In this document: piece by piece, positions 49,603-50,524 of the stretch
Position numbering within the stretch: position 1 is the stretch's first letter
Layout of the letters: each line of letters begins with the position of its first letter
Source: a virus
DNA: 64,000 nt
IMG/VR virus record: IMGVR_UViG_3300009177_000720
Reading direction: 5' to 3' (one strand)
The notes under the pieces: generated by a model
What the model saw: only the letters and a program-made list of their open reading frames with translations
Database searches by the model: none
Told to the model about the DNA's origin: nothing
Position numbers and translations under genes: made by a program

Positions 49603-49947
49603 TCAACTTTTTAATGCAAGTTGAAGTCGGCTACACAACTTCTTACTCTTAGGTCCAGGGGCCAAAGCAATAGCTGTGATTTGATCCTCAATATCAGGTT
49701 CTCTAAAAATAGAAAATTTGATATCCTGTTGAACAGCCATTGAAATCAAATCTTGCAATTCAATTTCGTTGGCTACAGAAAGAAGACCTAGATAGTTTGA
49801 TTGCTCAAACCATTGTCGATCCACCTCGGGATGCTCGGCAGTAAACTGGCGCAAAGCATGCATTGACTGCACTGCTTGGTAGCCAGGATCCAAATCCGAA
49901 CGAGTAATCACATACAACTTATCGCCCTCTTTAATCTATAGAGACAT
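49603..49947 (-). CDS. Peptidyl-tRNA hydrolase, PTH2-like; in-frame TAG at codon 4
   Basis: KLYVITRSDL..GYQAVQSMHA...FREPDI..QITAIAL; AGGAG-N5-ATG TCT CTA TAG ATT in frame with the body. Confidence 0.75.
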
Positions 49948-50524
49948 TGTTACTCCTAAATAACTTTTGGCAAATAGCTTTGCCACGCTTGTTGATTTGA
50001 TTCCATTTGATTTTAAAGGAGGTGGAATCGGTACCCCCAAACATCTTAGCGTTGGCATGAACTTCAGCCAGCCCAGCTAGAAGAAGAGTGCAAGCTTCAG
50101 GATAAGTAATGAACTCATCGATGTCGCAAGCCTTCATGGTATGAATCATCATATCCATCTTCATAAGCTTGGCAGCCGCACAACTACCTCCCACTTCCAG
50201 CCATGTCTTGGATGAGATGTCAGCATGGTTAGGAAAATGAGTTCTACCATTCTCATCGATTGACTTACAATAAGGCTTACCACAATCGTGATAAATTGTA
50301 TACTCCTCGATGATATCCTGAGGCAGGAGGGCGCTAAGAATTTGTTGATTGTATTCCGAAAGCCAATCAGGCAATCTCCAGTCTCCTGTGATTTGACCGG
50401 TTTTCAAATAATCAATCAATTGAAAAATATGCTCTTTAACCGAGAGACCATGCTGGAAAATAGACTGGCCTTTGGCTTGTTCACATTGTTGCATGTCTTG
50501 GATGAGTTGAAGCTAGGAGGGCAT
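49931..50524 (-). CDS. HD-domain phosphohydrolase; in-frame TAG at codon 4
   Basis: SIFQHG...YHDCGKP...HFPNHADIS; GGAGG-N9-ATG CCC TCC TAG CTT in frame with MQQCEQ. Confidence 0.72.

What the first reader, a model, noticed from the sequence alone, without database searches (positions are those of the whole stretch)
49603..50524. Codon-4 ambers turn the HD and Pth2 genes into tripeptide minigenes
SEEN: both genes have a strong SD and an ATG exactly 30 nt upstream of the ORF-track start, with TAG at codon 4 (MPS*, MSL*). The HD gene ATG lies 1 nt after the upstream stop, and its internal ATG has no SD. KNOWN: very short minigenes (lambda bar) cause peptidyl-tRNA drop-off that Pth must clear. 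INFERENCE: the unsuppressed state may generate the substrate of the enzyme encoded downstream. The HD protein resembles HD domains associated with tRNA end-healing. CAVEAT: a GAGG also precedes TTG 49917, so pth could have a bypass start.
Basis: partly seen in the sequence, partly recalled or inferred. Interest (0 to 1): 0.75.

Follow-up and report, generated by a model that had tools for sequence, protein, structure and literature searches.

The report
Suppressor-tRNA-gated phage HD and Pth2 genes
In this huge phage, two neighbouring tRNA-end enzyme genes each start normally and then hit a deliberate UAG stop at codon 4 that the phage's own UAG-reading tRNAs next door must override. This design is kept in dozens of distant large phages and gives their long-unexplained suppressor tRNAs a concrete target.

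Summary
ATG 50524 and ATG 49947 (minus strand) each follow a strong SD and are followed by TAG at codon 4, in frame with an HD-fold protein and a Pth2-like protein.

This is not chance. All 12 close relatives keep both TAGs. Of 61 distinct IMG/VR loci, 45 HD genes carry their own gate and 7 more sit in Pth2-HD fusions behind one gate. 37 of 41 Pth2 genes are gated, against 7.7% of control ORFs.

Two tRNA(CUA) genes lie 1.2-1.5 kb downstream. The gate codon follows the suppressor anticodon. One complete phage has TGA gates in both genes, two tRNA(UCA) and no tRNA(CUA). Its sister has TAG gates and a tRNA(CUA) at the same place.

Gates are followed by A and never T, unlike true TAG terminators. 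Cultured phages carry the feature: XacN1, RsoM2USA, GAP32, ME3 and Salmonella phage Arash.

Best reading: translation gated by a suppressor tRNA. The TTG bypass start is not conserved.

I found no paper describing this. The scan has already reported the same module on at least 14 other genomes.

The parts
50534..50538 (-). Shine-Dalgarno GGAGG of the HD gene, 9 nt upstream of ATG 50524
   Evidence: Sequence read directly; SD scan. SD-like motifs stand before the pre-gate ATG in most of the 12 relatives.
49931..50524 (-). HD-fold phosphohydrolase-like gene. True start is ATG 50524. The in-frame TAG gate is at 50515-50513 (codon 4). The internal Met codon is at 50494. The TAA stop is at 49933-49931.
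   Evidence: Translation. TAG conserved 12/12 and in 45/61 distinct loci. AF2 model pLDDT 94.3 with helix 4-13 spanning the post-gate residues. Fold matches. Invariant H25, H79-D80, H100, D124, H128, H156.
50513..50515 (-). UAG gate of the HD gene
49953..49957 (-). Shine-Dalgarno AGGAG of the Pth2 gene, 5 nt upstream of ATG 49947
   Evidence: SD-like motifs stand before the pre-gate ATG in most of the 12 relatives.
49603..49947 (-). Pth2-like gene. Start is ATG 49947. The TAG gate is at 49938-49936 (codon 4). The TGA stop is at 49605-49603. The 5' end overlaps the HD gene's 3' end by 17 nt.
   Evidence: Translation. Pfam PF01981 at 28.2 bits, cutoff 23. Profile hits to solved Pth2 structures, 2zv3 E 2.8e-9. 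TAG conserved 12/12 and 37/41.
49936..49938 (-). UAG gate of the Pth2 gene, in the consensus context CTA-TAG-ATT
48452..48523 (-). tRNA with CUA anticodon (amber suppressor), copy 1
   Evidence: ARAGORN. Rfam tRNA model 60.5 bits. A positional counterpart lies downstream of Pth2 in 11 of 12 relatives.
48670..48741 (-). Second tRNA with a CUCUAAA anticodon loop (CUA) and an atypical T-loop. ARAGORN misses it.
Evidence: Rfam tRNA 39.9 bits, above the gathering score of 29. Fold.
50888..50995 (-). Leader ORF of the same operon: MKTLSDYL, then TAG (50971-50969), then IGSRAPP and onward. It ends in a TGA that overlaps ATG 50891 of the next gene. This is a third amber gate, followed by an RAPP arrest-like motif.
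   Evidence: The M..L-TAG-x-x-x-RAPP pattern is conserved in L031, L032 and L034-36. The TAG is conserved in both syntenic relatives.
50526..50891 (-). 121-aa gene of unknown function, first gene of the gated operon. Its stop lies 1 nt before the HD ATG.
   Evidence: No Pfam, PHROG or Atlas information.
53241..53596 (-). Phage tmRNA gene 2.7 kb upstream. It recurs as a neighbour of the module.
   Evidence: A tmRNA also adjoins the module in L008 and L012 and in G009 and G010.

Best explanation
HD and Pth2 form a gene pair whose translation depends on suppressor tRNA. Ribosomes start at the SD-preceded ATGs (50524 and 49947), translate three codons and meet UAG. If release factor 1 wins, a tripeptide is released and no enzyme is made. 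If one of the phage's two tRNA(CUA) species (48452-48523 and 48670-48741) decodes the UAG, the full-length enzyme is made.

Enzyme output therefore reports the ratio of charged phage suppressor to RF1. An amber-then-RAPP leader in front of the operon adds a third gate.

The gate sits at the extreme N-terminus. I infer three reasons for this. Failed readthrough costs almost nothing there. Any inserted residue is tolerated. Termination on very short nascent chains is poor.

HD (metal-dependent phosphoesterase fold, closest to the C-terminal part of a CCA-adding enzyme) and Pth2 (hydrolase of the tRNA 3'-ester) most likely act together on tRNA 3' ends, because they are fused in either order in other phages.

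I infer that the circuit scales these enzymes to the level of stop-codon suppression. This would either mitigate its side effects, alongside the neighbouring phage tmRNA, or feed back on the suppressor itself.

Shown: anatomy, conservation, linkage, codon-anticodon covariation, sequence context and folds. Inferred: actual readthrough, the residue inserted, the enzyme substrates and the purpose of the circuit.
For: 1. Both TAGs are conserved in 12 of 12 close relatives, while the flanking residues evolve as protein.
2. In the wider survey, 45 of 61 HD genes are gated, 7 more are Pth2-HD fusions behind a single gate, and 37 of 41 Pth2 genes are gated. Controls show 7.7%.
3. A tRNA(CUA) lies within about 2.5 kb in 11 of 12 loci. 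The window has two.
4. Covariation. Complete phage G010 has TGA gates in both genes, two tRNA(UCA) between tmRNA and Pth2, and no tRNA(CUA) among 40 tRNAs. Sister phage G009 has TAG gates and a tRNA(CUA) at the same position.
5. A genome-wide screen of that pair for TAG-to-TGA switches gave 13 raw hits. I judged only HD and Pth2 to be real gates; the rest lack an ATG or lie in antisense frames. In the 64-kb window, conserved gates occur only in this operon.
6. Context. The base after the gate is A in 59 of 79 and T in 0 of 79. True TAG terminators show A in 36 of 105 and T in 33 of 105 (p 6e-8 and 1e-9).
7. No conserved start codon follows the Pth2 gate. The HD internal Met is also conserved in fusions and in TAG-less forms, where it cannot be a start.
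8. HD-Pth2 is fused in XacN1, and Pth2-HD fusions occur in IMG/VR.
9. Cultured phages with a known suppressor tRNA carry the gate: XacN1, RsoM2USA, GAP32, ME3 and Arash.
10. The XacN1 authors could not find targets for its suppressors (PMC5852040).
Against: There is no direct evidence of readthrough: no proteomics or ribosome profiling.

A high-GC subclade (L025-L027) keeps HD, Pth2 and tRNA(CUA) together without any gate. The gate is therefore dispensable, and the tRNA has some role beyond opening it.

In one complete genome (G006), the only tRNA(CUA) candidate is a low-scoring one.

The suppressor tRNA bodies are very diverse, and the inserted amino acid could not be assigned.

The covariation rests on one TGA lineage in my data.

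Gate contexts are not phylogenetically independent, so the p-values are optimistic.

In G010, TGA is also the commonest true stop, so an efficient opal suppressor would be costly. That cost is unexplained.
Confidence: 0.85

Rival explanations
1. In the unsuppressed state the ATG-NNN-NNN-TAG units act as bar-like minigenes. Their tripeptidyl-tRNAs drop off the ribosome and so supply, or signal through, the substrate of the downstream Pth2. The short ORF itself would then be the selected function.
For: Pre-gate ORFs are very short: 2-4 codons in 62 of 79 distinct gates. Strong SDs precede them. The last sense codon is biased: Leu 43% against an 8% background, with CTA over-used. From my knowledge of the minigene literature, the last codon matters for drop-off. 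A Pth-type enzyme and a tmRNA belong to the module.
Against: - Any stop codon would serve a minigene, yet the gate always matches the phage's own suppressor.
- The frame continues into conserved protein in every gated case.
- Gate positions reach 8-10 codons, and about codon 53 in GAP32.
- The same architecture sits on HD and on the RAPP leader, which are not Pth.
- The base after the gate favours readthrough rather than termination.
- A TAG-less clade keeps the module.
- Bacterial hosts generally have their own Pth, by my knowledge, which would clear such products anyway.
Confidence: 0.08
2. Tiny upstream ORF with termination-reinitiation. Ribosomes always stop at the TAG and restart at a downstream start (ATG 50494 for HD, TTG 49917 for Pth2). 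The suppressor tRNA would play no part.
For: The HD internal Met is invariant in 52 of 52 aligned homologues. TTG 49917 has a GAGG 8 nt upstream in this phage. Gene callers using code 11 pick these starts.
Against: - The Pth2 'TTG' is CTA, CTC, CTT or CTG in relatives, and its GAGG is not conserved.
- The internal HD ATG has no SD. It is conserved even inside fusion proteins and in TAG-less genes.
- The residues between gate and Met are conserved and form a confident helix.
- The gate is in frame in nearly all loci, where one third would be expected.
- The stop codon covaries with the suppressor anticodon.
Confidence: 0.04
3. General code-15-type recoding. The phage reads TAG as a sense codon genome-wide, and these two sites are ordinary recoded codons.
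For: A phage-encoded tRNA(CUA) is present. TAG is a rare terminator here: 5 of 86 minus-strand ORFs. Some gene callers translated homologues with TAG=Q.
Against: Nearly all ORFs in the 64-kb window are intact under code 11. Only three conserved in-frame TAGs exist, all within 1.1 kb. TAG still ends some long ORFs. In G009 and G010, I judged only HD and Pth2 among 13 raw screen hits to carry matched gates. The gate is never replaced by a sense codon across 40-88% protein identity, which is not expected for a freely usable codon.
Confidence: 0.02
4. Chance, sequencing error or pseudogenes.
For: None beyond the general frequency of gate-like patterns (7.7% of control ORFs).
Against: The feature is conserved in independent assemblies and in cultured, finished phage genomes. 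Downstream sequence is under protein-level conservation.
Confidence: 0.01

Closest known systems
Stop-codon-recoded phages with phage-encoded suppressor tRNAs (TAG or TGA reassigned; proposed to time late and lytic genes; bioRxiv 10.1101/2021.08.26.457843, PMC9523058)
   Same: A phage-encoded suppressor tRNA makes in-frame stop codons readable, so expression of the marked genes depends on that tRNA. The stop type matches the suppressor type.
   Different: Here the genome otherwise uses the standard code. Only two enzyme genes, plus a leader, carry one stop each. That stop lies 2-10 codons after the start and next to the tRNA gene. The marked genes are tRNA-end enzymes, not structural or lysis genes.
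prfB (RF2) autoregulation through an early in-frame UGA (established textbook case; from my own knowledge)
   Same: An in-frame stop early in a translation-factor gene acts as a sensor. The outcome of the competition at that stop sets the output of the gene.
   Different: prfB escapes by a +1 frameshift and senses its own product. Here escape is by a dedicated suppressor tRNA, and the products are not release factors.
Lambda bar minigenes and peptidyl-tRNA drop-off
   Same: An SD, an ATG, one to a few codons and a stop. In the unsuppressed state such units could release short peptidyl-tRNAs.
   Different: bar ORFs end and nothing follows in frame. Here the frame continues into a conserved enzyme, and the stop is matched to a cis-encoded suppressor.
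Orphan suppressor tRNAs of jumbo phages (XacN1 PMC5852040; RsoM2USA PMC8504454; Atu_ph07 PMC6102473)
   Same: The same class of phages and the same tRNAs. XacN1 and RsoM2USA carry the gated HD gene.
   Different: Those papers found no target. XacN1's authors read through annotated amber stops and found nothing. The target proposed here lies upstream of the annotated start.
C-terminal (HD-type) region of bacterial class II CCA-adding enzyme (PDB 3wfo)
   Same: Best structural match of the HD protein: Z 14.8, rmsd 3.1 over 159 residues against chain residues 249-448. There is also a weak profile match, E 0.022.
   Different: The phage protein has 197 residues and lacks the nucleotidyltransferase head and neck, so it cannot add CCA.

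Membership tests
PTH2 peptidyl-tRNA hydrolase (Pfam PF01981) | Sequence match to the family model above its curated cutoff | tested here: met
   28.2 bits against a cutoff of 23, E 2.4e-6, covering profile positions 3-104 of 115.
PTH2 peptidyl-tRNA hydrolase (Pfam PF01981) | Full-length similarity to solved Pth2 enzymes | tested here: met
   A profile of 28 phage sequences hits 2zv3 (E 2.8e-9), 1rzw, 1wn2, 1q7s (human Bit1) and 1xty over nearly the whole domain.
PTH2 peptidyl-tRNA hydrolase (Pfam PF01981) | Catalytic residues (Lys, Asp and Thr of the archaeal enzymes, recalled from memory and not verified) | tested here: inconclusive
   In the alignment to 2zv3, the invariant E79 aligns with the Asp of the RDAGHT segment. 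The GKGK Lys region is PGYQ in the phage family. R12, D14, Q23, H26 and T87 are invariant.
PTH2 peptidyl-tRNA hydrolase (Pfam PF01981) | Hydrolysis of peptidyl-tRNA | not testable with these tools
   Needs an enzyme assay.
HD-domain metal-dependent phosphohydrolase superfamily | HD fold | tested here: met
   The AF2 model has pLDDT 94.3. Matches to PhnZ, PgpH, GppA/PPX, YfbR, OxsA and SpoT HD domains give Z 8-10; Foldseek also lists HD entries such as 1xx7.
HD-domain metal-dependent phosphohydrolase superfamily | Conserved H...HD...D metal ligands | tested here: met
   H25, H79-D80, H100, D124, H128 and H156 are invariant in 52 homologues (the same positions).
HD-domain metal-dependent phosphohydrolase superfamily | Match to the Pfam HD model | tested here: not met
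   No Pfam family at E up to 0.01. Only PHROG 14850, of unknown function.
Class II CCA-adding enzyme | Nucleotidyltransferase head and neck domain | tested here: not met
   The 197-residue protein aligns only to residues 249-448 of 3wfo. It has no N-terminal catalytic domain.
Amber suppressor tRNA | tRNA cloverleaf with a CUA anticodon | tested here: met
   ARAGORN. Rfam tRNA scores of 60.5 and 39.9 bits, both with the loop CUCUAAA.
Amber suppressor tRNA | Aminoacylation and decoding of UAG | not testable with these tools
   The isotype could not be assigned by similarity.
Code-15-type recoded phage | In-frame TAG in a large share of genes | tested here: not met
   Three conserved in-frame TAGs in 64 kb. 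ORFs are intact under code 11.
bar-type minigene | An SD, an ATG, one to a few codons and a stop | tested here: met
bar-type minigene | A stand-alone ORF whose only product is a short peptidyl-tRNA or peptide | tested here: not met
   The frame continues into conserved, folded protein.

The most novel reading that the evidence does not exclude
The suppressor tRNA, HD and Pth2 form a closed homeostat or sensor. The only conserved phage targets of the suppressor are the two enzymes encoded beside it. Those enzymes, which act on tRNA 3' ends, in turn act on the suppressor or on the products of suppression. Stop-codon readthrough in the infected cell would thus be held at a set point or reported to the phage. 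The RAPP-arrest leader and the phage tmRNA would belong to the same circuit.
Probability: 0.25. Interest if true: 0.88.

Novelty: new variant of a known kind. Interest (0 to 1): 0.8.

Why it matters
Large phages with the standard genetic code often carry suppressor tRNAs whose purpose has been unknown. Papers on XacN1, RsoM2USA and Atu_ph07 say so or guess.

A gene-specific stop-codon lock with a tRNA key encoded in cis gives those tRNAs a defined target. It also shows a natural translational switch that uses competition between suppressor and release factor.

Current annotation misses it. The genes are called from internal starts, split, or truncated. In Salmonella phage Arash the tRNA that ARAGORN reads with a CUA anticodon is labelled tRNA-Phe.

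Carriers that infect Salmonella, Acinetobacter, Xanthomonas, Ralstonia and Cronobacter make the switch directly testable.

The HD and Pth2 pair, fused in either order, also points to an uncharacterised two-enzyme activity on tRNA 3' ends.

Tried and rejected
- **Own genome.** No whole genome is held for this window.
- **Close cultured relatives.** blastn of the locus against GenBank phages found only tRNA-sized hits.
- **Other gate candidates in the window.** GTG 14937, ATG 47833 and ATG 46357 were rejected. None is conserved in the syntenic relatives. The last lies in the wrong frame of a real nucleotidyltransferase-like gene.
- **Amino acid of the suppressors.** I compared them with 236 labelled phage tRNAs. 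The result was inconclusive. The 54 distinct suppressors have diverse bodies, and none has a long variable arm.
- **ARAGORN.** Default settings miss tRNA(CUA) copy 2 here and the tRNA(CUA) of G009. Lowered thresholds or Rfam were needed. In G006 only a low-scoring candidate was found. A run with permissive intron settings gave only noise.
- **HD-Pth2 complex prediction.** No verdict, score 0.00. It counts neither for nor against binding.
- **The 121-aa first gene of the operon.** Pfam, PHROGs and the ESM Atlas gave nothing.
- **Pyrrolysine.** ARAGORN's 'tRNA-Pyl' label follows from the anticodon alone. I looked for no Pyl machinery and make no such claim.
- **Literature.** Four full-text searches found no description of this gate. 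The library is incomplete.
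Full report
**Observation**

The genes lie on the minus strand.

For the HD gene, GGAGG (50538-50534) is followed after 9 nt by ATG 50524, then CCC TCC and TAG (50515-50513). The frame continues through L-Q-L-I-Q-D to the ATG at 50494 that code-11 ORF finding picks, and ends at TAA 49933-49931. The upstream gene's TAA (50528-50526) ends 1 nt before this ATG.

For the Pth2 gene, AGGAG (49957-49953) is followed after 5 nt by ATG 49947, then TCT CTA and TAG (49938-49936). 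The frame continues I-K-E-G-D-K-L(TTG 49917)-Y-V-I-T-R and ends at TGA 49605-49603.

**What the window is**

The window is phage-like, with dense co-oriented ORFs that are intact under code 11. It carries a tmRNA, four tRNA-Thr, a tRNA-Arg and a tRNA with a CUA anticodon at 48452-48523.

Relatives in IMG/VR are contigs of 127-153 kb rated 29-35% complete, plus a complete contig of 448 kb. The source is therefore a phage of roughly 430 kb.

TAG terminates only 5 of 86 minus-strand ORFs.

**Conservation of the ambers**

Twelve IMG/VR loci hold an HD homologue of 60-88% identity.

- All twelve have an in-frame TAG exactly seven codons before the conserved Met. An ATG lies 2-7 codons upstream of it (pre-gate peptides such as MST, ML, MS, MP, MKMNEA, MSDYL, MTSDTNL), mostly behind an SD-like motif. 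The residues after the TAG are conserved as protein.
- In all twelve, Pth2 lies immediately downstream and has its own early TAG (MSL, MCL, MA, MS, ME).
- The codon at the window's TTG 49917 varies synonymously among relatives (TTG, TTA, CTA, CTC, CTT, CTG). The GAGG in front of it is absent from close relatives.

Two relatives are syntenic with the whole window at about 72% nt identity. Among 855 minus-strand TAG triplets, the only ones that are conserved, in frame with a downstream gene and preceded by a start codon are the HD and Pth2 gates. A scan of intergenic TAGs adds only a leader ORF just upstream.

**Wider survey**

A profile search returned 77 loci, of which 61 are distinct, at 36-88% identity. 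They come mostly from contigs of 100-500 kb.

- 45 HD genes have their own gate.
- 7 are single ORFs of about 300 aa, Pth2-HD fusions behind one gate.
- One HD gene has a TGA gate.
- 37 of 41 Pth2 genes are gated.

The same permissive pattern occurs before 77 of 995 other ORFs in these loci (Fisher p about 1e-32 and 1e-33).

The 79 distinct gates share a sequence context.

- The next codon is ATT in 46% of gates.
- The next base is A in 59 of 79 and T in none.
- The preceding codon is Leu in 43%, against an 8% background.
- True TAG terminators of long ORFs in related genomes are followed by A in 36 of 105 and by T in 33 of 105 (p 6e-8 and 1e-9).

By my knowledge of classical suppression-context work, a purine after UAG favours suppression. 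The gates are not phylogenetically independent, so these p-values are optimistic.

**Link to the suppressor tRNA**

A tRNA(CUA) lies 0.1-2.5 kb downstream of Pth2 in 11 of the 12 close loci, and two of those loci have two copies.

The window also has two. The Rfam tRNA model scores 60.5 bits at 48452-48523 and 39.9 bits at 48670-48741. Both have the loop CUCUAAA.

The decisive result is covariation.

- The complete 342.6-kb phage G010 has M-T-W-S-TGA in HD and M-E-S-TGA in Pth2. It has two tRNA(UCA) between its tmRNA and Pth2, and no tRNA(CUA) among 40 tRNAs.
- Its sister G009 has M-T-TAG and M-K-L-TAG, with a tRNA(CUA) in the same position.
- I screened these two genomes for ORFs where a TAG in one matches a TGA in the other near a homologous N-terminus. 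Of 13 raw hits, only HD and Pth2 looked like real gates. The others lack an ATG, lie in antisense frames, or are an upstream gene's ordinary stop.

The conserved phage targets of the suppressor are therefore the two genes encoded beside it.

**Cultured phages**

tblastn finds the HD protein in 29 GenBank phage records.

| Phage | What it carries |
|---|---|
| XacN1 | ORF364 is an HD-Pth2 fusion. ATG AAG TAG lies upstream of the annotated start. |
| RsoM2USA | gp91 is preceded by ATG AAA TCG TAG. |
| GAP32 | The HD gene is split by an internal TAG. An annotated Sup-tRNA lies 2.3 kb downstream. |
| Acinetobacter phage ME3 | Pth2 begins M-T-TAG. A tRNA(CUA) lies 450 nt upstream. |
| Salmonella phage Arash | Pth2 begins M-L-TAG. 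A tRNA 1 kb downstream is annotated tRNA-Phe, but ARAGORN reads a CUA anticodon. |

The XacN1 paper states that reading through its 18 amber stops revealed no target for its suppressors (PMC5852040). The RsoM2USA and Atu_ph07 papers only speculate. Searches for recoding literature found genome-wide or block-wise recoding, not this gene-specific gate.

**The proteins**

Pth2:
- It passes the Pfam PTH2 threshold.
- As a 28-sequence profile it matches solved Pth2 enzymes end to end (2zv3 E 2.8e-9).
- Conservation of the active site is only partly evident.

HD protein:
- It has no Pfam hit.
- It folds confidently (pLDDT 94.3), with a helix over residues 4-13. The post-gate residues are therefore part of the domain.
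- Its best structural match is residues 249-448 of 3wfo (Z 14.8, rmsd 3.1, 159 residues). A preprint identifies this set of entries as a bacterial class II CCA-adding enzyme.
- HD-superfamily enzymes follow at Z 8-10.
- H25, H79-D80, H100, D124, H128 and H156 are invariant.
- It lacks the nucleotidyltransferase head, so it is not a CCA-adding enzyme.

Fusion of HD and Pth2 in both orders argues that they act together. A complex prediction gave no verdict.

**Mechanism**

The best-supported account is as follows. Initiation occurs at the SD-preceded ATG. At codon 4, RF1 competes with the phage tRNA(CUA). The full-length enzyme is made only on readthrough.

The invariant internal Met of HD is not evidence for a second start. 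It is equally conserved inside Pth2-HD fusions and in a TAG-less subclade. Pth2 has no conserved downstream start at all.

The same operon begins with a leader, M-K-T-L-S-D-Y-L-TAG-I-G-S-R-A-P-P and onward. Its readthrough frame ends in a TGA that overlaps the next gene's ATG. The TAG followed by RAPP is conserved in five relatives.

The whole operon therefore looks tuned to report suppression.

Why this should be so remains inference. One option is that the enzymes, with the adjacent tmRNA, handle the consequences of readthrough. Another is that they feed back on the suppressor. The TAG-less high-GC subclade still keeps HD, Pth2 and tRNA(CUA) together. This suggests a functional tie between the enzymes and the tRNA beyond the gate itself.

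In the unsuppressed state these units do have minigene anatomy, and pre-gate ORFs are mostly 2-4 codons long. But the conserved, covarying property is readability by the phage's own suppressor. Gate position varies and is internal in GAP32. HD and the leader share the design. The sequence context favours readthrough. I therefore treat substrate generation as a possible by-product, at about 8%.

**Relation to this scan**

A look-up made after my own analysis showed that the scan has reported the same gated HD/Pth2 module on at least 14 other genomes, with the same reading. My results were obtained independently and agree with it.

Noticed in passing
window 50888-50995 (-): Leader ORF MKTLSDYL, then TAG, then IGSRAPP and onward. 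Its readthrough frame ends in a TGA overlapping ATG 50891 of the next gene. The TAG followed by x-x-x-RAPP is conserved in L031, L032 and L034-36. It looks like an amber-gated arrest peptide controlling the first gene of the operon.
   Followed up: partly
window 48670-48741 (-): Second tRNA with a CUA anticodon and an atypical T-loop. ARAGORN misses it even at lowered thresholds, but the Rfam tRNA model scores it 39.9 bits. A 37-codon ORF lies between the two CUA tRNAs.
   Followed up: partly
window 49468-49540 (-): tRNA-like element directly after the Pth2 stop. Rfam tRNA gives 28.2 bits, just under the gathering score of 29, with an 8-nt anticodon loop (UaUGAUAA). The TAG triplets around it are conserved in both syntenic relatives.
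   Followed up: no
L167:3988-4062 (Salmonella phage Arash, OQ632216.1): A tRNA annotated as tRNA-Phe has the anticodon loop CUCUAAA (CUA) by ARAGORN. The neighbouring Pth2 is annotated as a 50-aa fragment because of its codon-3 TAG.
   Followed up: partly
L030:2501-3340 (XacN1 ORF364); L050, L058, L074, L076, L079, L082, L086: HD and Pth2 occur as single fused proteins in both domain orders: HD-Pth2 in XacN1, and Pth2-HD of about 300 aa in seven IMG/VR loci.
   Followed up: yes
L002 / L032, N-terminus of the HD gene: The closest relative has a short duplication at the gate (M-L-TAG-LQHTRGY-LQLVQD-M). This is why a plain nucleotide alignment missed its TAG.
   Followed up: no
G006 113181-114406 and 116153-116226 (loci L136-L137): Near the gated Pth2 and HD genes of this complete 373-kb phage lie several low-scoring or intron-like tRNA calls. 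They include an 88-nt tRNA(UUA)-like sequence and the genome's only tRNA(CUA) candidate.
   Followed up: partly
window 17321, 25422, 45419, 53852 (-): Conserved intergenic TAG triplets sit inside a recurring (T/G)ATATAG(T/G) motif upstream of genes. This may be a phage promoter -10-like element rather than anything to do with translation.
   Followed up: no
G010 whole genome (L113-L130): This phage gates HD and Pth2 with TGA and carries two opal suppressors. Yet TGA is also its commonest terminator: 289 of 546 long ORFs. How it tolerates its own suppressor is unexplained.
   Followed up: no
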